Part shown: piece after piece, positions 11,720-63,480 of the stretch
Layout: the number at the start of each line of letters is the position of its first letter
Numbering within the stretch: position 1 is the first letter of the stretch
Made by a program: the position numbers and the translations under genes
The notes under the pieces: model-generated
What the model was told of the DNA's origin: nothing
What the model saw: only the letters and a program-made list of their open reading frames with translations
Databases searched by the model: none
DNA from: a virus
Lineage: Duplodnaviria > Heunggongvirae > Uroviricota > Caudoviricetes
Virus record (IMG/VR): IMGVR_UViG_3300031718_000177
Length of the DNA: 64,000 nucleotides
Direction: 5' to 3' (one strand)

Positions 11720-12760
11720 CTATGTCATCTTTTGGAATGTCACTATATCGCTATTACGTCGTGTTACCTGGACGTTACCAGGAAACGTGGCGGAACCACC
11801 ATCTCTAAAGAGATGATACATTTTTTGCCAATGTTCGCAAGTGAGTTTTCCAATCTCCCACTCCACTCCTTGCCAAAACTTAATCAGCACTTCTTTAGCA
11901 AGATAGGGATGTTGAGCCATAATGGGACCGGTGGGAAGTCTGTAGCTACCGTCCTTATATTGGTCTAGTTTTTTATCAAACATACGGTGGAGCACTTTTG
12001 ATACTTCTTTATCAATGAAATCCCTTACGTCCTCTGCTTGATTACCTAAGTTGGTTAAAGCTGATTTAACTTGAACGTTGTAATTACTTAATAGAGGCAA
12101 TAGCTCTTTTCTAATACGATTACGGGCATAATCCATTGAATCGTTGCTGGAATCGGTTCTAAAAGATTGTCCTTTAGATTCCAGATAAGATAACACTTCT
12201 TCTCGCGTACAGTTAAGCATCGGTCTAATGAGTTTAACATCATCATTTAACCAACGGATAGCTGGCATACCGGCAAGCCCTTTAACGCCAGTGCCGCGAA
12301 TAATACGAAATAAAATTGTTTCTGCTTGGTCATCTGCGGTATGAGCTACGGCTACATAGTCGCATTCGTGAATATCTGCCTCTTTCTCAAATGTTTTATA
12401 TCGGATATATCTCGCAGCTTCCTCGATACCATTACCGCGTTTTTCTGCTAATGCTTTAACATCGCAATCGACGATAACGCAACTTATTTTAAGATTGCTA
12501 CATAAATCTCCAACAAACCGGGCATCTTCATCTGATTCTTTGCCCCGTAGTTGATGATTGATATGGCAAGCGATTGGAGCAAGGCTATATTCGTCCCGTA
12601 GTTCATTTAAGGTAAGCAGCAAGGATACGCTATCGGCACCGCCAGATACGCCAACTAGGATTCTGCCGCCTGCAACTTCTGGCTGCATCGCATGCGGATC
12701 GCCTTCAATTTTATTCTCTTTCAAGAACTTATAAATCGGAAACAGCGTGTTCATGGTCAT
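11720..12760 (-). CDS. tilS: tRNA(Ile)-lysidine synthetase
   Basis: PP-loop ILVGVSGGADSVSLL (SGGxDS) and HINHQLRG block typical of TilS; 346 aa. Confidence 0.85.
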   Translation of the reverse strand: MTMNTLFPIYKFLKENKIEGDPHAMQPEVAGGRILVGVSGGADSVSLLLTLNELRDEYSLAPIACHINHQLRGKESDEDARFVGDLCSNLKISCVIVDCDVKALAEKRGNGIEEAARYIRYKTFEKEADIHECDYVAVAHTADDQAETILFRIIRGTGVKGLAGMPAIRWLNDDVKLIRPMLNCTREEVLSYLESKGQSFRTDSSNDSMDYARNRIRKELLPLLSNYNVQVKSALTNLGNQAEDVRDFIDKEVSKVLHRMFDKKLDQYKDGSYRLPTGPIMAQHPYLAKEVLIKFWQGVEWEIGKLTCEHWQKMYHLFRDGGSATFPGNVQVTRRNSDIVTFQKMT

Positions 12761-14226: not shown

Positions 14227-14514
14227 CTAGTAACCCCTTCCTGAAGTGTCTTGGTTGACGAAATTGTCAGGAACTTCGTCTTTCTTCAGTTTCTTGAACA
14301 GCAATTTTTTATATCCTTGTAATGCTGCAATCTCCTTGCGTGCTTCAGCAAGGTCTTTCACAAGTTTTGTATTTTCTTCTTGCTTCCTTTTTAATCTACT
14401 CTGGGCAAGTACAACTTTACCTTCGGTAAGCCGCAACTTTGCCTGTAGAGATTCCGTATCCAATAGTTCATCTATTGAAATACCGGCATCTGAGAGAGCA
14501 CGAATTACTTTCAT
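14227..14514 (-). CDS. coiled-coil protein
   Basis: 95 aa, heptad-like charged repeats. Confidence 0.45.
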   Translation of the reverse strand: MKVIRALSDAGISIDELLDTESLQAKLRLTEGKVVLAQSRLKRKQEENTKLVKDLAEARKEIAALQGYKKLLFKKLKKDEVPDNFVNQDTSGRGY

Positions 14515-16103
14515 TATACATGTTTACTAACTAGTGCAACATCCCTTAGAGGAAGACGGTGGTAAGCCGGAGCACCTGTTCTAGCGTAATAAATGCCGGG
14601 CTCGACTTCATCGATTCTCGAAACTACTACTGTATCGCCCTTGGATAAAAGAGTAGAGTTTTCTGGTTTCCAAGCACCCACAGTATTCTTCAACACCTTA
14701 ACTGTATCGCCGGGCTCAATGACTGGTTTCTTAGCACCTTTACTAACAAGTTCAACGTCGGTTAGAGGAAGCCAATTTTTACCAGTAGAAATATCGTACC
14801 AAATAGCATCTCTACTGCCCCAACCTGATTTGCCAAGACTTTTGACTACTACCGTAGGCCGCGAGCAGTTCTGCGCAGTCGCGCAGTGAAGCTCACGCGG
14901 CGAATTGCTTTCCAGTAACCTGGCGGCTAGAAAGCCGATCAAAACAGCTAGAGCACCTGCGATAATGTATGCAGTATCACCAGGTTTAAGCCGTTGTCGA
15001 AACGATATCAAAGCGCCCACATCATTCTTCAACACCTTAACTGTATCACCGGGCTCAATAACTGGTTTAACAGCTTTGCTAACAAGTTCAACGTCTGTTA
15101 GTGGCAAATAACATTCTGGGAGACCCGGATGAAGCGAATCGTACCATATACAATTTGGACCTGATTTCGTATAATACGCTTGACCGTCCGTTCTTTTAAC
15201 TATCACGGTGTCTCCGGGTTTAAGATGTTGATTTGTATCGTTTCGCCAAGCACTTACGTTATTTCTCAACACTCTAACGGTATCGCCGGGTTCAATGACT
15301 GGTTTTTCTGATTGCTTAACGGCTTTGCTAACAAGTTCAACGTCTGTTAGTGGAATGTATTGTTCGACATCAGCAGGAATCCTATTGCTATCATAGTGGA
15401 TTCTATCACCCGAAACTCTCTTGACCAGAATAGTATCGCCAGGAACACAGTTGCGACCATTTGGACTATTTGCGTCTTCCCAAGTATCTTTACATGTCCA
15501 AGCACTTACAATATTCCTCAGCACCCTAACGGTATCGCCAACTTCAATGACTGGTTTGACACCTTTGCTAACTAATTCAACGTCCTTTAAGAGAATGTAT
15601 TGTTCGACACCAGCAGGACTCCTATTGCTAGCGTAATAGATTTTATCAACCGAAACTCTCTTGACTAGAATAGTATCGTCAGGAACACAGTTGCGACCAT
15701 TTGGACTATTTGCGTCTTTCCAAGTATCTTTACATGTCCAAGCATTTACAGTATTTCTAAGTACTTTAACAGTATCACCGGGTTCGATGATTGGTTTATC
15801 TAGTTGTTTAGCGGCTAATTTCTGTAATCGCTCAACCTCAGTGTTAAGACGCTTAATCTCTCCATCTCTCTGTTGCACGACCGTTTTAAGTTCTTCATAA
15901 CGCTTTTTATCTATTTCAGCGTTATACTTCATATCTTGAACAAGTTGTGTAAGTTGCACTTTTTCTCGATAAACTTCTAAGTAAAGATTTGGGTCTATGG
16001 GCGGTTGTAGTGCGGCTAGACCCTCGGTAATATCTCGGTCAACTGACCTATCAATGATGGAAATAGGCAGTCCAATAATCGCTCTACCTAATTGCTTGAA
16101 CAT
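14514..16103 (-). CDS. leader-bearing repeat protein (6 tandem ~45-aa PGDTV(K/R)VL barrel-like repeats, one TM helix)
   Basis: N-terminus MFKQLGRAIIGLPI (leader family); coiled coil; repeats of ...IEPGDTVKVLRN...LTDVELVSK; hydrophobic segment TAYIIAGALAVLIGFLAARLL. Confidence 0.65.
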   Translation of the reverse strand: MFKQLGRAIIGLPISIIDRSVDRDITEGLAALQPPIDPNLYLEVYREKVQLTQLVQDMKYNAEIDKKRYEELKTVVQQRDGEIKRLNTEVERLQKLAAKQLDKPIIEPGDTVKVLRNTVNAWTCKDTWKDANSPNGRNCVPDDTILVKRVSVDKIYYASNRSPAGVEQYILLKDVELVSKGVKPVIEVGDTVRVLRNIVSAWTCKDTWEDANSPNGRNCVPGDTILVKRVSGDRIHYDSNRIPADVEQYIPLTDVELVSKAVKQSEKPVIEPGDTVRVLRNNVSAWRNDTNQHLKPGDTVIVKRTDGQAYYTKSGPNCIWYDSLHPGLPECYLPLTDVELVSKAVKPVIEPGDTVKVLKNDVGALISFRQRLKPGDTAYIIAGALAVLIGFLAARLLESNSPRELHCATAQNCSRPTVVVKSLGKSGWGSRDAIWYDISTGKNWLPLTDVELVSKGAKKPVIEPGDTVKVLKNTVGAWKPENSTLLSKGDTVVVSRIDEVEPGIYYARTGAPAYHRLPLRDVALVSKHV

Positions 16104-16106
16104 TGT

Positions 16107-16322
16107 TCATTCTTTCTTTTGGAAATCAGGATAACCGAGATGTTTCAACAGCATGACAAAAGCGGGGATAAACAACAACATACCGACTGCCCAATAAACG
16201 TTATGGCTTTGGAATAGTCGGTATATGCATGGAGCTACAAAGAGGAGCCAAGCAAGAAGCGTATATGGGGCTAAAGAGAACCATATATGCTTAAACCAAG
16301 CCCAATAATTTTGGAAAAACAT
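16107..16322 (-). CDS. small membrane protein
   Basis: 71 aa, two hydrophobic helices. Confidence 0.45.
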   Translation of the reverse strand: MFFQNYWAWFKHIWFSLAPYTLLAWLLFVAPCIYRLFQSHNVYWAVGMLLFIPAFVMLLKHLGYPDFQKKE

Positions 16323-16324
16323 TA

Positions 16325-16504
16325 TTACTTGCCGGGACAGTGCTTACACTTACAATTCGGGCAATGGCAGTTATGGTCTTTACAAGTACACCCTTTGCCT
16401 TCCGCACAATGACAACCTGCTTTGGAATCAACAGGACTCTCGCAACCCACACAAGAAAAACCAACAAACAACGCACAGCATACCAAACCGATCAAACTTT
16501 TCAT
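16325..16504 (-). CDS. Cys/His-rich secreted miniprotein (59 aa), below the ORF-track threshold
   Basis: Hand translation: MKSLIGLVCCALFVGFSCVGCESPVDSKAGCHCAEGKGCTCKDHNCHCPNCKCKHCPGK. Signal-peptide-like N-terminus, then about 14 Cys and 4 His in 35 residues. Its stop lies 2 nt from the next gene's ATG. Confidence 0.5.
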   Translation of the reverse strand: MKSLIGLVCCALFVGFSCVGCESPVDSKAGCHCAEGKGCTCKDHNCHCPNCKCKHCPGK

Positions 16505-16622
16505 TGAAACACCTTTCTTTGAGAAAAAACTGACTGCCTATTATATAGGCATCTCCTTTAATAATTGCCCGCTTCCGAGTTGAACGGAAATCGCGAGGGT
16601 CAGAACCTCGTGTGTTAGCCAA

Positions 16623-16946
16623 TTACACCAACGGGCCACCATCATCCTCAAACCGCATAAGTTCGAGATTTTCCATATACCAATCAATCTTACTTTGTAT
16701 ATTAAAATAACAACTTAATAGATTATGTACACCTTTCCACGACTTTTGTTCTCTAATAGCAAATACCAACATATGGCTCGCGTCAATACCTATGATGTGC
16801 ATATGAAAAAACTTACCTATCTTCAGGTTCCGTTCTATGTAAATCTCAGCATCTTCTATTTCCTTGACGCGATATAACTTCCAAGATACATTCTTGTGAT
16901 AAACTCCCTTGTCATATTCGATTAAGGTAAGGCTAGATGCCGCCAT
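16623..16946 (-). CDS. hypothetical protein
   Basis: 107-aa ORF. Confidence 0.45.
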   Translation of the reverse strand: MAASSLTLIEYDKGVYHKNVSWKLYRVKEIEDAEIYIERNLKIGKFFHMHIIGIDASHMLVFAIREQKSWKGVHNLLSCYFNIQSKIDWYMENLELMRFEDDGGPLV

Positions 16947-31477: not shown

Positions 31478-32518
31478 TTACTCGGCAACTTTCTTTTCTG
31501 GTTTCGCCAGATGATGACGTGGAACATTATTTCCATCCAACTTTACACTGGCATCGTTTAATATCAAGGGCAAACCATTACCGCTACCGCCGATAACAAT
31601 GATTTTCGCATTCGGAGAGTCGGCTAACAGTGTAGTGGCTTCAATGCCCTTCCACAATAGCAACTTGTCGCTAATGCCTTCCATAACAATCTTCTGGAAC
31701 TTCTGAATGCCGTTGGCTTCAATAACCTTACGGTCAGCTTCAAGAGATTCTTTCTTCAAGCGGAAAGTCATCGCTTGAGCCTCTTGATCGGCACTAACTT
31801 TCTTTTCGATCGCTATCTTTACAGTATCGGGAACATCTACTTTACCAATTAGGACTTCTGGCACAGAGATAACTTCAGTCGGAGCATCCTTATATCGCTC
31901 GACAATCTTTCTAACTTCCGCGTCTATATTCTTCTTGATGGTTTCTGCTAATTCTCCACGTTTGCCGCCAGTGGTAACATCACTCGAATAACATTCATGG
32001 TCGGTATATTTCGCAACAGCATCGGTTACAGCACTGCGAGCGGCCGGACGCACTAGTTTATCAATATACTCGCTGCCGAAGTTCTCATAAACCCACGGAG
32101 CAGAAGATTCTACGAGCCGATAGGGAATGCTAATTTCAAGATGCATTTGCATACCGTTGCTACTCATAGCAATAACGGAATCATTCCCTGGCTTTGCTCC
32201 CTCATTATCGTTCGGACTCATACGATAGTTGTCGGTTCTCACGGACATTTCATCCACAAAACAAAGCGGGTTGATTAAGTGCAATCCAGCGTGCAATGGC
32301 TCGTGATAGACATGCCCAAACAGCACTTGAACAGCCGTGTTACCGGCTTTAACAGTTACAATGCCTGATAAGAGACACAATAAGAATCCGAAACCAGCAG
32401 CACCTACCGCATACTTCCTGAGTGGAACAGCCCCTTTTGCACCTTGCGGAGCAAGGAAACGAATCGCAGCATATGCGAAAGCCGCACAACAAAGAACGAA
32501 AAAGCCGAGCCAAAACAT
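31478..32518 (-). CDS. SPFH/band-7 (prohibitin/HflKC-like) membrane protein
   Basis: N-terminal TM, then an SPFH core with a coiled-coil tail (AQAMTFRLKKESLEADRKVIEANGIQKF…; …NAKIIVIGGSG). Confidence 0.65.
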   Translation of the reverse strand: MFWLGFFVLCCAAFAYAAIRFLAPQGAKGAVPLRKYAVGAAGFGFLLCLLSGIVTVKAGNTAVQVLFGHVYHEPLHAGLHLINPLCFVDEMSVRTDNYRMSPNDNEGAKPGNDSVIAMSSNGMQMHLEISIPYRLVESSAPWVYENFGSEYIDKLVRPAARSAVTDAVAKYTDHECYSSDVTTGGKRGELAETIKKNIDAEVRKIVERYKDAPTEVISVPEVLIGKVDVPDTVKIAIEKKVSADQEAQAMTFRLKKESLEADRKVIEANGIQKFQKIVMEGISDKLLLWKGIEATTLLADSPNAKIIVIGGSGNGLPLILNDASVKLDGNNVPRHHLAKPEKKVAE

Positions 32519-32536
32519 TGCTTACCCTTTCGGAAA

Positions 32537-32725
32537 CTACTTGCCTTTCAACGGGAAAAACAAAGCACGGATGACGCCAGCAATACCGCCCCACAAGCAA
32601 GCACCTTGCCAGCCATTACCACTAATACCTACGCCCATCGCGTACCCTATGCTTGCCGCACTGATTACGAAGATTGCCGACGCAAAAAGGTATCTCGCCA
32701 TTGTTCTCACCTTTTGAGCGACCAA
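32537..32725 (-). CDS. small Gly-rich membrane protein upstream of the SPFH gene
   Basis: 62 aa, GxxxG-rich TM. Confidence 0.4.
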   Translation of the reverse strand: MVAQKVRTMARYLFASAIFVISAASIGYAMGVGISGNGWQGACLWGGIAGVIRALFFPLKGK

Positions 32726-42174: not shown

Positions 42175-43582
42175 TCACAAATGAACTGCCCTTACCCCAT
42201 CGGATTGAGTAAGTAGAAACCAAAAGTCGTTTGTTCCATTAGTAAAACTCCGTAGTTCTACTAGCGAATCTCTGTTGAGAACTTTCTTCGGCCTCTTATT
42301 GAGTAGGTTCCATTGCGACCAACTATGCTTTGCTCTTTCTCCACTGCGGAGTAGCGAAGCAATTTTGGATGGCACCTTCTCATTATACCCTTGTCCTCTC
42401 CTGCCTACAACCTGCGCTGCACAAGAATGAACGCTCCTGCCAAGCGGGATAGCATACTTTAACTTCGCAATTACACTCGTATAAGCAGGATTAGTTTCTT
42501 TAACTAATACGCCGTTCTTGACCGCACAGGATTTTAAGTAAGTAATAAACTTCCTATAAGTAATCAAACTAACTTTTCTGTTTATTCGCTTGTTATAACC
42601 AAATTGTTTTTTACCTAAGTCAATATTTTCAATAACTATATTTGCTTTATTTTCTTTTGCCTGCTTTACAACTGCTCTAGCTATTTGTATTATCTTTTCT
42701 TTAACTTGATTACTTTTAAGTTCTGAATTATATTTGTAGTCAGTATAACTTTCAGGATTGCCATCTGCTTTTAACAGGCAGGTATTAAACATATTATAGT
42801 TTATATCTACGCCGACCGCTCTTAATTGACTTGGACACTCGTTATTAAACTTAAAACTTACTTGTACATACAGTTGCCGTTTTCTCTCTGGAATATCTGA
42901 TAAGTTAGCGGTTTTCCCTCACTAATTGCTTGAATTAAGTATTGATATATCTCTTTTTTATGTGTAAAATCAACATTAAGAATAAGTTTATTTTGCTCAA
43001 ATGAGTAAGGTAAAGTAAGTACTAATTTAGTTAAAGTTTGTAATTGGCAAAGTTGATTACCGAAACTCTCATCTTTACTGCCTACTAAATAGATAAAGTT
43101 ATTCCTTTTACGCCGCCACTCACTTAACCACTCCTTATGACTTTTATGTTGCCACTGCTTCTTATAGTATTGATACCCGCTCCAAGTCGCTTTTGCTATT
43201 CCTTTATTAAGTTTGGCGTTATTTAATCTTTGCTTTGTCCTGTTAAGTTTGTTATTAAGATGATAAATATTAAACTGGCTTTTACACTTCTTTAACTTTT
43301 GTTCTATTTCTGCTACTTTTGCTTCAATATACTTAACTTTATTTATATTAGCCGAAAGTATTGACTACCTTTAACATCTATATGGATAGCATTAAGTAAT
43401 CTTGCGTGGATATGATAATCTTTAAGTAATTGTTTCTTTAATTGAGAGGAATAAGTATTGTTATCAGTTAAGATATTAAACAATTTTCTTGATAAAGTTT
43501 GCTGTAAAGTGCCGTATTTGACAAGTAAATCCTGATTAGGATTGTAAATCTTTGACTCAACTGTTAAAACTATTGTTTTCAC
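42175..43582 (-). pseudogene. decayed IS200/IS605-family tnpB (three frame-shifted fragments)
   Basis: N-terminal fragment 43343..43582; C-terminal RuvC-like fragment 42175..42792 (IVIENIDL, NPAYTS, HSCAAQVVGRRG). The middle lies in a third frame with no start codon. Confidence 0.6.
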
Positions 43583-53499: not shown

Positions 53500-53910
53500 C
53501 TAACCGGATAAACTCTGAACCATCTGGAGCGACATGCGGAGCGAATCATTTAGCTGCAAGACAATTAACTGAACTTGATTGTAAAGATCACTTATGGAAT
53601 AATTGTCTCTTCCAAAGAATTGCTGCAAACCATTCCTATCCACTTCTAAAGTATAGGTTGACATTATGCCGGTTCCTAGCGGAGTGTTCTTAATTACGTA
53701 CTTCCAAGTAACAGGTGAACCGGTAATTGGTTGCGAAATATTACCAGGAGTTCCTGGCGTTGTACCTACTGCTTGTGTTGCTGTTGCCGTAAAAGTAATA
53801 CCATCACCTAATGATGTCCAGTTAAGTTTACCAGATGTAGTGGCTTGAATTAACTCTCCCACAAGGTTTGTTGCATACGAATTTTGGAGATCCAAAAGGG
53901 TTGTGGACAT
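53500..53910 (-). CDS. hypothetical protein (Thr/Gly-rich)
   Basis: 136 aa; first gene of the long minus-strand block. Confidence 0.45.
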   Translation of the reverse strand: MSTTLLDLQNSYATNLVGELIQATTSGKLNWTSLGDGITFTATATQAVGTTPGTPGNISQPITGSPVTWKYVIKNTPLGTGIMSTYTLEVDRNGLQQFFGRDNYSISDLYNQVQLIVLQLNDSLRMSLQMVQSLSG

Positions 53911-54127
53911 GTAAGTATATATCTATACTAACTTTAATTTTCTTCTCGGCTTAGGAACAAAATTACCCTAATCACAATCAGGAAAGTTTAAGTAACACCC
54001 TTGTCCTCCTGTAAATCCCGCACTATCAGTTCCCTTATTTTCTCGCTAACCGTCTTGTATTCCTTTTTACACTTTTTTTCCAATTTCTCAAAAAGAGAGG
54101 GTTGTATCACAACCGAAATTAACCGTG

Positions 54128-54156
54128 TTGTCAGTTCTTTCTTCATATACTATAAT
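54128..54156 (+). promoter_or_regulatory. sigma70-like promoter TTGTCA-17-TATAAT for the plus-strand module
   Basis: ttgtcagttctttcttcatatacTATAAT in the divergent intergenic region. Confidence 0.5.
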
Positions 54157-54190
54157 ATAGTATCTCAAAACGAAAATTAAGAAAAAATTA

Positions 54191-54427
54191 TTGAAAATCT
54201 TCCTCCTCTTGCCATTTTCCCTGGCGTGTGGTAGAGTGAGAGGTACGAATATGAAGGGAAAATCGTCTGCGAATTACGTTTGCTCCAAATGCAATAAACC
54301 ATTCACTTATGACGGACAGACCGATAATTTTATCATTTATGATGCAAAAGATGATAAAGTCCTAATCCTATGCAGGAGTTGTAGTAAAGTAGCACGATCA
54401 CGATTGAAAATAAGGAAAATAAAATGA
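54191..54427 (+). CDS. small zinc-ribbon protein (likely starts at the internal MKGKSS)
   Basis: CSKCN…CRSC. Confidence 0.4.
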   Translation: MKIFLLLPFSLACGRVRGTNMKGKSSANYVCSKCNKPFTYDGQTDNFIIYDAKDDKVLILCRSCSKVARSRLKIRKIK

Positions 54428-54642
54428 AAACCCCTAAGGAAAAGTTTGATGGAGTAATTATATTTAACATATGCGTAGGGAATGCCTCACTAGATGCCGC
54501 TATGGAATATATTGAAAAAAGGAAAAAAGCAAACGATTTCAATAGGTGGCCAGATAATTATGACCGTTTGTGGCTACCCACATGGAACGATAATAAGGAC
54601 AGCATACAGTTAATGCCCTTTAATCAATTAGGAAACAAATAA
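54424..54642 (+). CDS. hypothetical protein
   Basis: 72 aa; ATGA coupling. Confidence 0.4.
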   Translation: MKTPKEKFDGVIIFNICVGNASLDAAMEYIEKRKKANDFNRWPDNYDRLWLPTWNDNKDSIQLMPFNQLGNK

Positions 54643-55352
54643 TGTCGCAACGAGTAGCTACCAGAAATGGTAATAAAAACCTGTTATTAGTATGTCCACA
54701 TGGGTTTGATGATACCAATACGGATATCATAACCGAAGAGTTAGCATCTTCGCTTGATTGCTTCTCTCTCATCAATTACGGATGGGAAAGGACGCGAAAG
54801 CCGGATGATGTTAAAGGGTGGGCCGATTGTAATAACAGCAAACACGTTATGGATAAAAATTCGGTTGTGTTCGCCGAATTCGGCAAACCGTTCATACAAA
54901 TGCGGGCAAAGATATACAAGTTTAACAAGTCATTTTACACTCTTTATATTCACGGTTGTGGCAGCCGTGTTAGAAAAGTCACTAAAGACCCCGATTTGGG
55001 TATGATTATCGGTTTCGGACAAGGTACTACTCCGTCACTAACTTGTGAAAAATGGATGGCCGAGGTATTAGCAATTCATGCTACTGCGAACAATATCAAA
55101 ACATACTTGGGCAAAGCCGATGGCGATTATGCAGCATGGCTACAAAACAATATGTGCCAATATTATCGCAAGAAACGACCTGAACCGCTTATTCACAGTA
55201 TGCAGTTAGAAATCGTGAGTGCTTTGCGTAAAGACAGTAATTGTAAAGCGACAGCTACGCTGCTAGCTAAAGCCATTGACGAATTACTTAAATTAGATAT
55301 CAAAGGTGGAGACCCGAATGCAGGGAAGCAGTTGAATATACCGGAGTGTTAG
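54642..55352 (+). CDS. putative amidohydrolase (N-formylglutamate amidohydrolase-like)
   Basis: N-terminal LLLVCPHGFDD resembles the FGase-family HxG motif; family assignment is weak. Confidence 0.4.
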   Translation: MSQRVATRNGNKNLLLVCPHGFDDTNTDIITEELASSLDCFSLINYGWERTRKPDDVKGWADCNNSKHVMDKNSVVFAEFGKPFIQMRAKIYKFNKSFYTLYIHGCGSRVRKVTKDPDLGMIIGFGQGTTPSLTCEKWMAEVLAIHATANNIKTYLGKADGDYAAWLQNNMCQYYRKKRPEPLIHSMQLEIVSALRKDSNCKATATLLAKAIDELLKLDIKGGDPNAGKQLNIPEC

Positions 55353-55649
55353 ATGTGTCAAAACGGTAAGTGCGATTATCCCGCTCAATTTCACATAACT
55401 TCTGATAGTCCTTACATCTGGGTTGAAAAAGATTTAAGGGGCACAAACACATCTCTCAAGAAGTTGCTTGCTGATATGTCTGACGAACAAAGAAAGGCCA
55501 TTTCACATCAATTTCATAAGCAAAGAGGAGGGACAGTAAAGATAAGTGATGTTACTGAATTATATGTATGTCCAGAAAGTTTCCAGAAAGTTGTAAAGAT
55601 AAATGGCCTTAAGTTATATGTGCAAGCAGAAAGCTTCCAACAATGCTAG
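55353..55649 (+). CDS. hypothetical protein
   Basis: 98 aa. Confidence 0.4.
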   Translation: MCQNGKCDYPAQFHITSDSPYIWVEKDLRGTNTSLKKLLADMSDEQRKAISHQFHKQRGGTVKISDVTELYVCPESFQKVVKINGLKLYVQAESFQQC

Positions 55650-56287
55650 TCATTATATTCGGTCGTCCAGGTGCCGGCAAAGGTACTCACGGAAAAACCT
55701 TAGCCAAAGCTTTTGGCATACCATATATTGGAACTGGCGATATTCTAAGACAAAGAGCAGCATGCGACCTTAAAATTGGCAACTTAATGGAAGAATATGC
55801 GGCCAAAGGCCACTTATTGCCCGATGAAATCCTGAATCCAATTGTATTAGATTGTTTATCAAAACATAAGGATAAAGGGGCTATCATCGATGGCTACCCA
55901 CGCAACGAGACACAAGCCCGTTTCTTATTAGGATATCATACAAGTAATGAAATAAGAATCGATTGGATATTGAACTTTGTTGTATCCGAACTAGTAGCCA
56001 TTAAACGTCTTATGAAGCGAGGCAGAAGTGATGATTCTGATATTTCCGTTATCCGAGATAGAATGGAAGTTTATGAAAAGGAAACCTTGCCTGCTCTGTG
56101 CTTACTAGAACAACATTTACTAGTTAGTACGGTAGACGGCGAAGGAAGTATTGAAGAAGTGAAAGAAAAAATCATCTTGGCTTGGGAGGACTACTCGCGG
56201 AAGGTCTTACGAGCATATTACGACAAATTTATCGATCAAGAATTAAGAAGTAAAAAATACATCTTGCAACGTAATATGGAAACATAA
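55643..56287 (+). CDS. adk: adenylate kinase
   Basis: P-loop IIFGRPGAGKGT, NMP-binding region, IIDGYPRNETQA, LID-like RGRSDDS…RDRMEVY. Confidence 0.8.
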   Translation: MLVIIFGRPGAGKGTHGKTLAKAFGIPYIGTGDILRQRAACDLKIGNLMEEYAAKGHLLPDEILNPIVLDCLSKHKDKGAIIDGYPRNETQARFLLGYHTSNEIRIDWILNFVVSELVAIKRLMKRGRSDDSDISVIRDRMEVYEKETLPALCLLEQHLLVSTVDGEGSIEEVKEKIILAWEDYSRKVLRAYYDKFIDQELRSKKYILQRNMET

Positions 56288-56560
56288 ATGAACCAATGGG
56301 AAGAGTTGAAGCGTATTAAGAGCAAGGTAGGGATTTTATTCATCACGGAGGATTTCGGTCGGACAAACTATTGGCTTATAGAGAGTATTCAATTCAGGGA
56401 GAATTGGGGCGGGGGCTTCGCGGTTAAACTGGATAGTATTACAAATCCAGTCTTCGATAAGGGAGAAGTAGCAATAACTTATTTTAACAAATACTACAAA
56501 GAAGTTCCGAAGAATGAAGTGCCAAAAGAGTTGCAACAATATGATAGGAGATTCCAATGA
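56288..56560 (+). CDS. hypothetical protein
   Basis: 90 aa. Confidence 0.4.
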   Translation: MNQWEELKRIKSKVGILFITEDFGRTNYWLIESIQFRENWGGGFAVKLDSITNPVFDKGEVAITYFNKYYKEVPKNEVPKELQQYDRRFQ

Positions 56561-56775
56561 ATGTCTGGCAAATTCAAGGGCAAATACGTGCAGTTAAAAA
56601 AGAAGCATTAAAGAAATATAAGGGGAAGAAATTAGACGAAAAAGCATGCAAGAAATTGGTTAAGGATATTATTGAAGCAGTAAATCAAATCTGTCGCGTA
56701 GATATAATAGTTTCCAAAGAATGGATCGTTGAAGATATTATCATAGACACAGGGATGGGGATGATGCCGGTGTGA
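56557..56775 (+). CDS. hypothetical protein
   Basis: 72 aa. Confidence 0.4.
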   Translation: MNVWQIQGQIRAVKKEALKKYKGKKLDEKACKKLVKDIIEAVNQICRVDIIVSKEWIVEDIIIDTGMGMMPV

Positions 56776-57179
56776 TTTCCATAGCTAACCGAATTATACC
56801 AACGATAAATCTTAAAGAAGAAGATAGTGCCTATAAGATCATATATGCTATCATTCCCTGGCCTGATAAAAGTATAACCTATTATTTAAGTTATGGAGAT
56901 TGGCCGTTACTACGAAACACTGGCGGCGGGATCTGTCATAGCGAGATACTCCGAAAGTACGATAAGACTAGCTATTTTACTAATGTAGTCAATAGCGAAA
57001 AAGATTCTGCCGGAATATGTATAGGTGCTCTCGTTAAGCTTGTATTGATTAAGAACCCCCAAAATATACCGATGGTACTGGCTTTTCTAACACAAGTCCC
57101 ATATGATAGCAGTAAGTTTTTAATCAATACATTTACGAATAAACCAAGTATTCTTTATCCACCATCGAACGGACGGTAA
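56772..57179 (+). CDS. hypothetical protein
   Basis: 135 aa. Confidence 0.45.
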   Translation: MISIANRIIPTINLKEEDSAYKIIYAIIPWPDKSITYYLSYGDWPLLRNTGGGICHSEILRKYDKTSYFTNVVNSEKDSAGICIGALVKLVLIKNPQNIPMVLAFLTQVPYDSSKFLINTFTNKPSILYPPSNGR

Positions 57180-57249
57180 CTTGAGGTGAGCACCCCAATC
57201 GTATGCTGAAAATGACGAAAACCGACGAATTGCGGTTATGATTGGGGAA

Positions 57250-62259: not shown

Positions 62260-63480
62260 CTAAAATGATGGTGACAATAATTTCTCAGTTCTACGACGAC
62301 CACTGCCACAAACGGCTGTAACCTTATCGTCTCCATGAGCGTTAATTCGGACGTGTCCCGTCCTATTTTTCCCTAAGTTTTCAATTAAACTTTGGCGATT
62401 AAAAGCAAAATCTTTAATGTTATTTGCGGCTAATACATCCCTATCATGTGTCCTACCGCATTCGCATGTCCATTCTCTTTCGTTAAGTTTAAGGTTACTG
62501 TTGATTTTGCCACAACTACACATTTTACTGCTCGGCTCAAATCTACCAATTTGTAAAATATTGCTTCCATACCACTCACCCTTGTATTGAAGCATCCTTA
62601 CGAAATTGCTCCAACCAGCCGAGGATATTGAATATGCTAAATTGTGATTCTGCAACATTTCCTTTACACTTAAATCTTCAAGACAAATAGATTGGTTCTC
62701 TCGTATTAGTCTTGTTGATAACTTTTGTAAGAAGTCATTTCTTTGATTTGCTACTTTTTCGTGAAGTAAAGCTAACTTCAATCTTGCTTTCTCTCTGCGA
62801 TTGCTGCCTTTTACTTTTCTATCTTTCCATCGTGAAAATAGTTTCAATTTATCTGCGGATTTCTCTAAGTATTTAGGATTTTCTACTCTCTCGCCAGTGG
62901 ACAGAGTAATAAAATGTCTCAGTCCCAAGTCAATTCCGATTGCTTTCTTTCTATCCGGTTTCCTTTTCTTTTTTGGTTGTTCAGTTGTTTCAACCACTAC
63001 CGAAGCAAAATATTTATTTGTCGGCGTCTTACTTATAGTAACTGTTTTAATCGTCCCGTTAAACTTGCGATGCAATGTTGCTTTAATATTTTTGATTTTT
63101 GGTACAGTAATTGTTTCCTTATCAAAATCTACTTTGTTACTTTGCGGACACTGGAACGACTGGTAACTTGATTTCTTCTTAAACTTTGGGAAACCATTCT
63201 TCTCTCGGAAGAAACGAGTATAAGCGTTGTCCAAGTTTCTTAATGCCATTTGTAGCGACTGGGCATTAACTTCGGTAAGCCATTCTATTTTTTGTTTCAA
63301 TTTAGTTAATTCGCCGTTCAGGTCTATACAAGATAGACCTTTCTTTGTTTCTTTATATGTTTGTATTTTAGTTTCTAGCCCCCAATTGTAAACAAATCTT
63401 GAACAACCAAAATGTTTGCTGAAAAGTGCCTTCTGTTCTTCTGTGGGATAAATCCTATATTTGTACGCTTTCAATATCAT
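62260..63480 (-). CDS. tnpB: IS200/IS605-family TnpB (OrfB), intact
   Basis: RuvC-I IGIDLG, RuvC-II ICLEDLSVKEM, zinc finger CSCGK…CECG, RuvC-III RDVLAANNI; 406 aa. Confidence 0.85.
   Translation of the reverse strand: MILKAYKYRIYPTEEQKALFSKHFGCSRFVYNWGLETKIQTYKETKKGLSCIDLNGELTKLKQKIEWLTEVNAQSLQMALRNLDNAYTRFFREKNGFPKFKKKSSYQSFQCPQSNKVDFDKETITVPKIKNIKATLHRKFNGTIKTVTISKTPTNKYFASVVVETTEQPKKKRKPDRKKAIGIDLGLRHFITLSTGERVENPKYLEKSADKLKLFSRWKDRKVKGSNRREKARLKLALLHEKVANQRNDFLQKLSTRLIRENQSICLEDLSVKEMLQNHNLAYSISSAGWSNFVRMLQYKGEWYGSNILQIGRFEPSSKMCSCGKINSNLKLNEREWTCECGRTHDRDVLAANNIKDFAFNRQSLIENLGKNRTGHVRINAHGDDKVTAVCGSGRRRTEKLLSPSF

What the first reader, a model, noticed from the sequence alone, without database searches (positions are those of the whole stretch)
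16325..16504. Unannotated 59-aa Cys/His-rich secreted miniprotein (metallothionein-like)
This ORF is absent from the six-frame track because it is under 60 aa. By hand translation it reads MKSLIGLVCCALFVGFSCVGCESPVDSKAGCHCAEGKGCTCKDHNCHCPNCKCKHCPGK. It has a hydrophobic signal-like N-terminus followed by a 35-residue region with about 14 Cys and 4 His. It sits in the operon, with its stop 2 nt from the next ATG. It could be a metal-binding peptide, a disulfide-knotted toxin or bacteriocin-like peptide, or a zinc-knuckle.
Basis: seen in the sequence. Interest (0 to 1): 0.55.

Follow-up and report, generated by a model that had tools for sequence, protein, structure and literature searches.

The report
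Orphan lipoprotein-like, metallothionein-like miniprotein gene
A 59-codon gene candidate on a huge phage-like element encodes a small protein with an export and lipid-anchor signal followed by a cysteine/histidine cluster spaced like a metallothionein metal-binding domain; it has no relatives in any collection searched, so it is probably real and unusual, but its function rests on sequence features alone.

Summary
The ORF exists as described, on the minus strand (16504→16325). The translation is exact and its stop lies 2 nt before the next ATG. The Cys count was overstated: there are 13 Cys in all, 11 of them plus 4 His in the 42-residue mature part.

I judge it about 80% likely to be a real gene:
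- It has the best coding score of the six frames, though the score is only neutral.
- Its synonymous codon use looks like that of real genes.
- It has the purine-rich RBS-like motif seen before other genes here.
- Only 2 of 394 ORFs in the window meet the PROSITE-type lipobox rule, and this is one of them.
- Its Cys density exceeded all 100 shuffles, and no DNA repeat explains it.

Residues 31-56 have the Cys spacing of the vertebrate metallothionein β-domain, apart from one extra residue in one loop, but no metallothionein HMM matches.

No homologue was found in 5.8 billion protein clusters, 1.84 billion representatives, IMG/VR, JGI metagenomes, GTDB genomes or INPHARED. Conservation therefore cannot be tested. 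No RiPP maturase, endolysin or metal-resistance domain was detected in the 64 kb.

Best reading, at confidence about 0.4: an exported, probably lipid-anchored, thiolate metal-binding miniprotein. Rivals are a disulfide- or Zn-stabilised exclusion lipoprotein, a chance ORF, a RiPP precursor and a spanin.

The parts
16325..16504 (-). 59-codon ORF (ATG 16504-16502, TAA 16327-16325) encoding the Cys/His-rich miniprotein
   Evidence: Searches give the ORF and its translation. It has the best 3-periodic Markov score of the six frames, -0.87 against -3.7 to -21.9. Its synonymous-codon score is 3.04; real genes score 3.6±2.7 and spurious ORFs 0.08±3.5.
16454..16504 (-). Codons 1-17, MKSLIGLVCCALFVGFS: signal peptide with a lipobox (VGFS|C18). 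A signal peptidase I cut after G-F-S would give the same mature end.
   Evidence: The PS51257-type rule was applied by script and matched only 2 of 394 ORFs of at least 40 aa in the window. The h-region has a mean Kyte-Doolittle value of 2.29. No SignalP or LipoP tool was available.
16328..16453 (-). Codons 18-59, the predicted mature 42-residue domain CVGCESPVDSKAGCHCAEGKGCTCKDHNCHCPNCKCKHCPGK, with 11 Cys, 4 His, 6 Lys and no aromatic residues
   Evidence: Composition. The single-sequence AlphaFold2 model is uninformative, with pLDDT 51.9.
16337..16414 (-). Nine-Cys, two-His framework C-H-C-x5-C-x-C-x4-C-H-C-x2-C-x-C-x2-C (residues 31-56), spaced like a metallothionein β-domain
   Evidence: The pattern occurs once in the window and in none of 100 shuffles. 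PDB metallothionein β-domain chains 1dft and 2mhu align to residues 30-56 at non-significant E-values of 1.5-3.5. Pairwise BLASTP to human MT2 gives E=0.009.
16510..16520 (-). Purine-rich RBS-like motif AAAGAAAGGTG, ending 5 nt before the ATG
   Evidence: Similar AAAGG/GAAAGG motifs precede many confident genes here. An SD-like 4-mer lies upstream of 16 of 45 training genes, against 16% of random 20-mers.
16535..16551 (-). Weak hairpin followed by a T-run, lying between the tRNA and the ORF. It could be a tRNA 3' or terminator element.
   Evidence: Consensus terminator scan. The fold is not significantly stable, at -11.3 kcal/mol with z=-1.03.
16564..16638 (-). tRNA-Gln(CTG) gene immediately upstream
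   Evidence: ARAGORN and Rfam RF00005 at 42 bits.
16107..16322 (-). 71-codon ORF starting 2 nt after the miniprotein stop. It has two predicted transmembrane segments (13-33 and 40-64). It is a possible partner and is also an orphan.
   Evidence: Its coding score is neutral at -1.53. It has no significant family hits.
14514..16103 (-). 529-codon ORF starting 3 nt after the 71-codon ORF. It has a coiled-coil-like N-terminal part, five tandem repeats of about 80 aa (P[VI]IE[PV]GDTV[KR]VL[KR]N ... DVELVSK) and one hydrophobic segment at 374-399.
   Evidence: It is a singleton in 5.8 billion protein clusters. It served as the anchor for identifying the source contig.

Best explanation
The ORF is a real, previously uncalled gene of a 292.7-kb, orphan-rich, phage-like element of a bacterial host.

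Inferred mechanism:
1. The precursor is exported through Sec.
2. Its leader (residues 1-17) is removed at the lipobox VGFS|C18, and Cys18 is probably diacylglyceryl-modified. The 42-residue mature peptide is thereby tethered to the outer face of the cytoplasmic membrane or to the outer membrane.
3. The tethered domain carries nine cysteines in CxC/CxxC motifs, spaced almost exactly as in the metallothionein β-domain, with four interspersed histidines.
4. This domain binds soft metal ions (Zn(II), Cu(I) or Cd(II)) as a thiolate/imidazole cluster.
5. It may act together with the translationally coupled two-TM 71-residue protein encoded 2 nt downstream.

Shown here: the ORF, its leader and lipobox pattern, the Cys/His framework, the tight gene spacing, and the lack of homologues.
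Inferred only: export, lipidation, metal binding and any partnership.
For: Evidence that the gene is real:
- It has the best coding score of the six frames and real-gene-like synonymous codon use.
- An RBS-like AAAGAAAGGTG lies upstream, as for other genes here.
- Gaps of 2 nt and 3 nt separate it from the next two same-strand ORFs.
- Without the two small ORFs the intergenic gap would be 519 nt, against a median of 37 nt.
- No RNA family other than the tRNA matches the region.

Evidence for export and a lipid anchor:
- The PS51257-type rule is met at C18, and only 2 of 394 ORFs meet it.
- TilS_N scores 198 bits, above its 93.6-bit cutoff. This points to a bacterial host, which would have an Lgt/Lsp pathway.

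Evidence for metal binding:
- The ORF reaches 11 Cys per 42 residues, against 5-9 at most in shuffles, and no DNA repeat explains it.
- The mature part has no aromatic residues and is Lys-rich.
- Seven of the eight Cys-Cys spacings equal those of the vertebrate MT β-domain. The only PDB small-protein matches are MT β-domains.
- The only natural bacterial peptides found with the same C-terminal 7-Cys/1-His spacing lie next to MerR-type metal-responsive regulators in 5 of 5 loci.
Against: - No homologue exists, so there is no conservation, covariation or dN/dS support.
- The Markov coding score is only neutral at -0.87. That is lower than 98.5% of real-gene windows, and 6.6% of spurious ORFs score as well or better.
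- The gene caller used for the source assembly called neither this ORF nor the 71-codon ORF.
- No metallothionein HMM matches.
- An exported Cys-rich peptide would be oxidised to disulfides in a DsbA-containing periplasm, and the host is unknown.
- No metal-resistance, transporter or regulator gene lies in the 64-kb window.
- A hairpin with a T-run separates the ORF from the upstream tRNA, and no clear promoter was found.
- The resemblance to the MerR-linked peptides is circular, because they were retrieved with a pattern derived from this ORF.
Confidence: 0.4

Rival explanations
1. It is a real exported lipoprotein, but the cysteines serve structure rather than metal storage. After lipidation of C18, ten Cys remain, enough for five disulfides or a small Zn-stabilised knot. 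These would rigidify a 4-kDa surface or periplasmic domain that masks a host receptor or channel. That would make it a superinfection-exclusion or host-takeover lipoprotein in the manner of T5 Llp or the Cor proteins; this comparison is from my own knowledge and was not tested.
For: - It has a lipobox and is small.
- An even number of Cys remains after C18.
- It lies in an accessory, orphan-rich region of a phage-like element, next to a small two-TM protein.
- No metal-handling genes are nearby.
Against: - Four CxC motifs with adjacent His are typical of metal-thiolate sites rather than disulfide knots (inference).
- No PHROG family matched, so no known exclusion lipoprotein family was hit.
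- The AlphaFold2 model shows no confident compact fold.
Confidence: 0.25
2. It is not a gene. The ORF is a chance open frame in the spacer that follows a tRNA gene, and its Cys richness is a by-product of local TG-rich composition.
For: - The coding score is neutral at -0.87, and the adjacent 71-codon ORF is equally neutral.
- The source gene caller did not call it.
- It has no homologues.
- A clearly spurious alternative-frame ORF in the same window reaches 10 Cys in 42 residues.
- Other gaps of 450-760 nt exist in the window.
Against: - Independent features coincide: an ATG start with an RBS-like motif, a rule-conforming signal peptide and lipobox (2 of 394 ORFs), and 2-nt coupling to the next ORF.
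- Its Cys density exceeds all 100 shuffles, and no DNA repeat explains it.
- It is the best of the six frames and has real-like synonymous codon use.
Confidence: 0.2
3. It is a precursor of a ribosomally made, post-translationally modified peptide that uses a Sec or lipoprotein signal. The model would be bufferins, oxazolins and DAG-RiPPs, whose Cys residues are converted by MNIO enzymes into metal-binding heterocycles.
For: - Sec-signal and lipoprotein-signal RiPP precursors with Cys-rich cores exist and bind copper (PMC11626156; PMC13056109).
- The peptide contains 'EGKGC', which is reminiscent of the oxazolin EGKCG motif.
Against: - No MNIO/DUF692, DUF2063, radical-SAM, YcaO or lanthipeptide enzyme domain occurs among the 84 ORFs of the 64-kb window.
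- None occurs in the precomputed Pfam annotation of the roughly ±10 kb around the ORF.
- There is no DUF2282 or other precursor-family hit.
- The motif order differs.
Confidence: 0.07
4. It is the outer-membrane lipoprotein half of a lysis (spanin) module. The 71-residue two-TM protein would be the holin, and the coiled-coil-containing 529-residue protein would be the inner-membrane partner.
For: - It is a small lipoprotein followed by a two-TM 71-aa protein.
- It is also followed by a protein with a coiled-coil-like N-terminal part.
Against: - No endolysin or peptidoglycan-hydrolase domain occurs in the window.
- None of the three proteins has a PHROG lysis hit.
- The mature peptide has only 3 Pro in 42 residues and is Cys/His-rich.
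- From my own knowledge, known o-spanins are Pro-rich, and their genes follow or are embedded in the i-spanin gene rather than preceding it.
Confidence: 0.05

Closest known systems
Vertebrate metallothionein β-domain (Pfam PF00131; PDB 1dft, 2mhu)
   Same: - It has nine Cys with almost the same spacing: C-x-C-x5-C-x-C-x4-C-x-C-x2-C-x-C-x2-C here, with x3 in place of x4 in MT.
- Both have a 'C.CA.G..CTC' stretch and a 'CKCK.C' stretch.
- Both lack aromatic residues and are Lys-rich.
   Different: - There is no significant sequence or HMM match: PDB E-values are 1.5-3.5, and Pfam gives none even at E≤10.
- The peptide has four His.
- It carries a cleavable signal peptide and lipobox, whereas metallothioneins are cytosolic.
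- It has a single domain only.
- It is encoded by a phage-like element.
Unnamed MerR-linked peptides of about 32 aa in Sphingomonadales-type genomes and soil metagenomes (alignment A4, e.g. MTDKTKTPCACSCARGGCHCNPCACKNCGCN)
   Same: - The C-terminal framework C-x-C-x4-C-H-C-x2-C-x-C-K-x-C is identical.
- hhalign gives probability 88% over residues 39-57.
- Their position beside MerR/CueR/ZntR-like regulators in 5 of 5 loci argues that this framework is used for metal handling in bacteria.
   Different: - They were found with a pattern derived from the target, so the similarity is not independent evidence of homology.
- They have no signal peptide.
- They are half the length.
- The window contains no MerR neighbour.
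Sec- or lipoprotein-signal RiPP metallophores (bufferins, oxazolins, DAG-RiPPs)
   Same: They are small precursors with an N-terminal Sec or lipobox signal and a Cys-bearing core. They act outside the cytoplasm in copper binding (PMC11626156; PMC13056109).
   Different: These families are defined by an adjacent MNIO (DUF692) enzyme and a partner protein. Neither is present in the 64 kb. There is no DUF2282 or BUF-family match.
Membrane-anchored Cys-rich acidic protein of IMG/VR contig UViG_3300033172_000391 (L036 1251..1679)
   Same: - It is encoded on a viral contig.
- It has an N-terminal hydrophobic segment followed by two C-x-C-x-E-G-x-x-C-x-C modules, CHCHEGDDCQC and CTCREGEGCTC. These resemble CHCAEGKGCTC of the target.
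- Pairwise BLASTP gives E=1e-5 and E=4e-5. The second module was not part of the search pattern.
   Different: - It is 129-142 aa, highly acidic, and has no lipobox.
- The K/R-rich stretch after its TM segment suggests a cytoplasmic rather than an exported domain (inference).
- The first module was selected by the pattern.
- Whether this reflects homology or convergence is unresolved.
Small phage lipoproteins (o-spanins; Llp/Cor exclusion lipoproteins)
   Same: They have a short lipobox-bearing precursor with a mature part of 40-60 residues, and they are phage-encoded.
   Different: - There is no PHROG or Pfam match.
- No lysis cassette or receptor-binding-protein context was recognised.
- The composition, 26% Cys and 10% His, is unlike these families (own knowledge).

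Membership tests
Metallothionein (Pfam Metallothio PF00131 and the other Pfam MT families) | Significant match to a family profile | tested here: not met
   No Pfam hit for the full peptide at E≤0.1 or for the mature peptide at E≤10. Human MT2, used as a positive control, scored E=5.6e-23. PDB MT chains matched only at E=1.5-3.5.
Metallothionein (Pfam Metallothio PF00131 and the other Pfam MT families) | β-domain nine-Cys framework (CxC-x5-CxC-x3-CxC-x2-CxC-x2-C) | tested here: inconclusive
   Seven of eight spacings are identical, and one loop is one residue longer. Such spacing can arise by convergence.
Metallothionein (operational definition) | Low molecular weight, high Cys content, no aromatic residues | tested here: met
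   The mature part has 42 residues, 11 Cys (26%) and no F, W or Y.
Metallothionein (operational definition) | Binds metal ions in thiolate clusters | not testable with these tools
   This requires purified peptide with ICP-MS or native MS.
Bacterial lipoprotein (PROSITE PS51257 rule) | K/R within the first 7 residues; six uncharged residues; [LIVMFWSTAG]2-[LIVMFYSTAGCQ]-[AGS]-C with the Cys at position 15-35 | tested here: met
   K2 is present, VCCALF is uncharged, and V-G-F-S-C18 fits. Only 2 of 394 ORFs of at least 40 aa in the window fit the rule. C21 does not fit, because position -3 is Cys.
Bacterial lipoprotein (PROSITE PS51257 rule) | Lgt/LspA-dependent acylation and cleavage | not testable with these tools
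   This requires globomycin and palmitate-labelling experiments. The host is unknown but probably bacterial, given TilS_N at 198 bits.
Bufferin / oxazolin / DAG-RiPP precursors | Adjacent MNIO (DUF692) enzyme and partner protein | tested here: not met
   Only 13 Pfam families occur among the 84 ORFs of the window, and none is an MNIO, DUF2063, radical-SAM or YcaO family. The precomputed Pfam annotation of the roughly ±10 kb shows only DnaJ and PP-loop.
Bufferin / oxazolin / DAG-RiPP precursors | Precursor family signature (DUF2282, BUF_6/12Cys, EGKCG repeats) | tested here: not met
   There is no Pfam hit. The sequence has EGKGC once and not EGKCG repeats.
o-Spanin (Rz1-like) | Lies within a lysis cassette with an endolysin and an i-spanin | tested here: not met
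   No lysis-related PHROG or Pfam hits were found for the neighbours or anywhere in the window.
MerR-linked ~32-aa Cys-rich peptides (alignment A4; unnamed) | About 32 aa without a signal peptide; gene adjacent to a MerR-family regulator | tested here: not met
   The target has a 17-residue leader, and no MerR domain occurs in the window. The shared Cys/His spacing holds by construction of the search.

The most novel reading that the evidence does not exclude
A huge phage encodes the first lipid-anchored, extracytoplasmic metallothionein. This would be a 42-residue thiolate/imidazole metal trap tethered in the host envelope, possibly working with a co-translated two-TM protein. During infection it would buffer or withhold Zn/Cu at the membrane surface. 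It would have arisen independently of all known metallothionein families.
Probability: 0.3. Interest if true: 0.6.

Novelty: new variant of a known kind. Interest (0 to 1): 0.37.

Why it matters
If the peptide is made and binds metal, it would extend metallothionein-type chemistry to the bacterial envelope. Known bacterial metallothioneins are cytosolic; this is from my own knowledge. It would also extend that chemistry to phage auxiliary genes. That would suggest that large phages manipulate envelope metal availability.

It also illustrates how routine gene calling drops genes of fewer than 60 codons. The source assembly's annotation skips both small ORFs here.

As it stands, it is a single orphan sequence with no comparative support. 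Its present value is as a cheap, well-defined candidate for expression and metal-binding tests.

Tried and rejected
Homologue searches for the peptide, all negative:
- The word-indexed search of 5.8 billion clusters found no candidates.
- Exhaustive phmmer against 1.84 billion representatives gave two hits, both unrelated repeat proteins.
- Exact-sequence lookup found nothing on record.
- Peptide 8-mers found nothing in IMG/VR or in JGI metagenomes.
- tblastn against INPHARED phages found nothing.

Synteny route, no usable relatives:
- The neighbouring 529-aa and 211-aa proteins have no usable relatives.
- The one weak relative, P0004, sits in a different context with no small ORF upstream.
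- blastn of the 4-kb region and tblastn of the 1228-aa protein against phages found nothing.

Cys-framework DNA patterns:
- All 8 IMG/VR hits to the full framework are (TGCCATTGTTGT)n-type simple repeats and were rejected.
- JGI metagenomes gave no hits.
- Eleven of the 13 GTDB genome hits are alternative-frame Arg/Cys junk.

Other tests that led nowhere:
- Family libraries (Pfam, PHROGs, NCBIfam, PADLOC) and PDB gave no significant hit for the peptide or the 71-aa ORF.
- AlphaFold2 without an alignment gave pLDDT 51.9, so no fold search was attempted.
- Rfam showed only the tRNA.
- Host inference failed. The Bacteroidota-type promoter motif is not enriched. TnpB's best plasmid matches are spread over Alistipes, Bacteroides, methanogens and Clostridium at about 48% identity.
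- The terminator-like hairpin is not significantly stable.

Full report
**1. Observation**

The coordinates hold an ORF only on the minus strand. The plus-strand reading is unrelated.

The stop is followed by 2 nt and the ATG of a 71-codon ORF (16107..16322). That ORF ends 3 nt before the ATG of a 529-codon ORF (14514..16103).

The Cys count was overstated. There are 13 Cys, 4 His and 7 Lys overall. Two Cys lie in the leader, and 11 Cys plus 4 His lie in residues 18-59.

**2. Setting**

- Nearly all long ORFs in the window run on the minus strand with short gaps. The median gap is 37 nt.
- The neighbouring 529-aa protein identifies the source as a 292,671-bp contig of ENA assembly ERZ27256860. 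That assembly's gene calls skip both small ORFs and leave a 520-nt hole.
- Only 13 Pfam families occur among the 84 ORFs of at least 80 aa. They include the TilS PP-loop, adenylate kinase, TnpB, SPFH, DnaJ, AAA, SprT, RNA ligase, DUF2934 and Peptidase_MA_2.
- The TilS N-domain scores 198 bits against a cutoff of 93.6, which points to a bacterial host.
- No DNA or protein similarity to deposited phages was found. I therefore call the element 'phage-like'; the resemblance of its tRNA and tRNA-modification content to huge phages is from my own knowledge.
- A tRNA-Gln(CTG) gene lies immediately upstream at 16564-16638. It is followed by a weak hairpin with a T-run whose stability is not significant.

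**3. Is it a gene?**

I trained a 3-periodic second-order Markov model on 45 long ORFs of the window.
- The target frame scores -0.87, the best of the six frames; the others score -3.7 to -21.9.
- Windows from real genes score 7.0±3.7, and embedded spurious ORFs score -6.2±4.2. The target therefore sits between the two, below 98.5% of real windows and above 93% of spurious ORFs.
- Cys is 1.9% of residues in the training genes and 22% here. Composition therefore depresses the score.
- The synonymous-only codon score removes composition. It is 3.04, against 3.6±2.7 for real genes and 0.08±3.5 for spurious ORFs.
- An AAAGAAAGGTG motif ends 5 nt before the ATG and resembles the purine-rich motifs before many genes here. 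SD-like 4-mers occur upstream of 36% of training genes and in 16% of random sites.
- The ORF reaches 11 Cys per 42 stop-free codons, against maxima of 5-9 in 100 shuffles, and no DNA repeat underlies this.
- One caveat applies. An alternative-frame ORF over the start of the SPFH gene reaches 10 Cys.
- The PROSITE-type lipoprotein rule is met by only 2 of 394 ORFs of at least 40 aa, and the target is one of them.

These partly independent features lead me to put the probability of a real gene near 0.8.

**4. What it encodes**

Residues 1-17 (MKSLIGLVCCALFVGFS) form an n-region and an h-region ending in a lipobox, with Cys18 as the lipidation site. A signal peptidase I cut after G-F-S would give the same mature end (the hand rule is the only predictor available).

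The mature 42 residues have 26% Cys, 10% His, 14% Lys and no aromatic residues.

Residues 31-56 carry C-H-C-x5-C-x-C-x4-C-H-C-x2-C-x-C-x2-C. The Cys gaps are 2,6,2,5,2,3,2,3, against 2,6,2,4,2,3,2,3 in the vertebrate MT β-domain. This explains why the only small-protein PDB matches are MT β-domains, at non-significant E-values of 1.5-3.5. Pairwise BLASTP to MT2 gives E=0.009. Pfam's MT models do not match, although the MT2 control does.

AlphaFold2 without an alignment was uninformative, with pLDDT 51.9.

**5. Relatives**

No relatives were found.
- The word-indexed search found nothing.
- The exhaustive search gave two spurious repeat proteins.
- IMG/VR, JGI metagenomes and INPHARED gave nothing.

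Small ORFs are often not called, so I also searched DNA directly with degenerate patterns encoding the Cys/His framework.
- The IMG/VR hits to the full framework were simple repeats.
- JGI metagenomes gave none.
- In GTDB genomes, a shorter pattern gave 13 hits, of which 11 are junk. The other two are peptides of 31-33 aa in Sphingomonadales.
- Those two seeded a family of about ten unnamed peptides of roughly 32 aa.
- In 5 of 5 loci with flanking sequence, that family's gene abuts a MerR/CueR/ZntR-like regulator.
- hhalign gives 88% probability against the target over residues 39-57. This is circular, because the family was retrieved with the target's own pattern. I use it only as an analogy showing that this spacing is used in a metal-regulated bacterial context.
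- A second pattern found a viral membrane-anchored acidic protein (L036) with two CxC-x-EG-xx-CxC modules like the target's CHCAEGKGCTC. The second module was not part of the pattern. Whether this is homology or convergence is unresolved.

**6. Mechanism and rivals**

*Best reading (0.4).* It is an exported, probably lipid-anchored peptide whose nine-Cys/four-His cluster binds soft metals, possibly with the coupled two-TM protein. Export, acylation and metal binding are inferred and not shown.

*Rivals.*
- A disulfide- or Zn-stabilised exclusion or host-interaction lipoprotein (0.25).
- A chance ORF (0.2).
- A RiPP precursor of the Sec/lipobox type (0.07). The comparators come from the literature read. 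The 64 kb contains no MNIO, radical-SAM or YcaO enzyme.
- A spanin or lysis module (0.05). There is no endolysin and no PHROG lysis hit, and the composition is wrong.

No defence-system model matches the neighbourhood.

**7. Novelty and verdict**

The peptide belongs to no described family. Its kind, a metallothionein-like Cys cluster placed behind a lipoprotein signal on a phage-like element, is a new variant of known kinds.

The evidence consists of intrinsic sequence features of one orphan sequence. I found no literature on phage-encoded or envelope-anchored metallothioneins in two of the full-text searches.

I rate interest at 0.37. The candidate is unusual and cheaply testable, but it lacks comparative or functional support.

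Noticed in passing
L018 2178-2231 (-), L022 941-994 (+), L026 1058-1159, L027 2501-2599, L029 2501-2599: A family of unnamed Cys-rich peptides of about 32 aa (consensus ...ACTCSCTKGGC[HR]CNPCTCKNCGC) occurs in Sphingomonadales-type genomes and soil metagenomes. It has no Pfam or NCBIfam model. In 5 of 5 loci it lies next to a MerR/CueR/ZntR-like regulator, usually divergently. It looks like an undescribed MerR-controlled mini-metallothionein.
   Followed up: partly
L036 1251-1679 (+) (IMGVR_UViG_3300033172_000391): A viral 129-142-aa protein has an N-terminal TM segment and two acidic CxC-x-EG-xx-CxC modules (CHCHEGDDCQC and CTCREGEGCTC). It lies next to a 390-aa ORF that I read as alanine-racemase-like by eye only. 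It is the only IMG/VR match to the CxCxEGxGCTC module.
   Followed up: partly
L031, L032, L034, L035, L037 (IMG/VR contigs): Five viral contigs share a conserved ORF of about 73 aa (MERREMG.NRDGWFYTGRLWYEQ...) that ends in a Cys cluster CCHCKEKE[TA]CGCEREDC[SG]C.H.C. It is another small phage protein family with a metallothionein-like tail.
   Followed up: no
window 14514-16103 (-): The 529-aa orphan protein has five tandem repeats of about 80 aa (PVIEPGDTV[KR]VL[KR]N ... DVELVSK). A hydrophobic segment at 374-399 lies within the fourth repeat. It is a singleton in 5.8 billion clusters.
   Followed up: partly
window 16564-16638 (-) and 16623-16946 (-): The tRNA-Gln(CTG) gene overlaps the last 16 nt of the upstream 107-codon ORF. 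An AAGGAG lies directly against a 3-codon mini-ORF (ATG CCT ATA TAA) just after the tRNA.
   Followed up: no
window 11720-12760 (-): A TilS-like tRNA(Ile)-lysidine synthetase is carried by the element. Its N-domain scores 198 bits against a cutoff of 93.6, but it reaches only 110 bits against the full-length equivalog cutoff of 606. It is shortened, at 346 aa.
   Followed up: partly
window 32349-32600 (-): An 83-codon TTG-start ORF with 13 Cys overlaps the 5' end of the SPFH/Band-7 gene in another frame. It is probably spurious. It shows that alternative frames of real genes can be very Cys-rich.
   Followed up: partly
window 62260-63480 (-) and 42175-42792 (-): There is a full-length IS605-type TnpB (406 aa). 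Its best plasmid matches, at about 48% identity, are in Alistipes, Bacteroides, methanogens and Clostridium. A second, truncated TnpB-related ORF (205 aa) is also present.
   Followed up: partly
window ~53900-57200: A block of plus-strand ORFs (54642-57179) interrupts the otherwise minus-strand genome, and the GC skew changes sign there. This may be a module boundary, an inversion or an origin-like switch.
   Followed up: no
L003-L010 (IMG/VR, several giant-virus MAG contigs): Simple (TGCCATTGTTGT)n-type repeats read as CHCC... in one frame. They produce false positives for any Cys/His framework pattern.
   Followed up: yes
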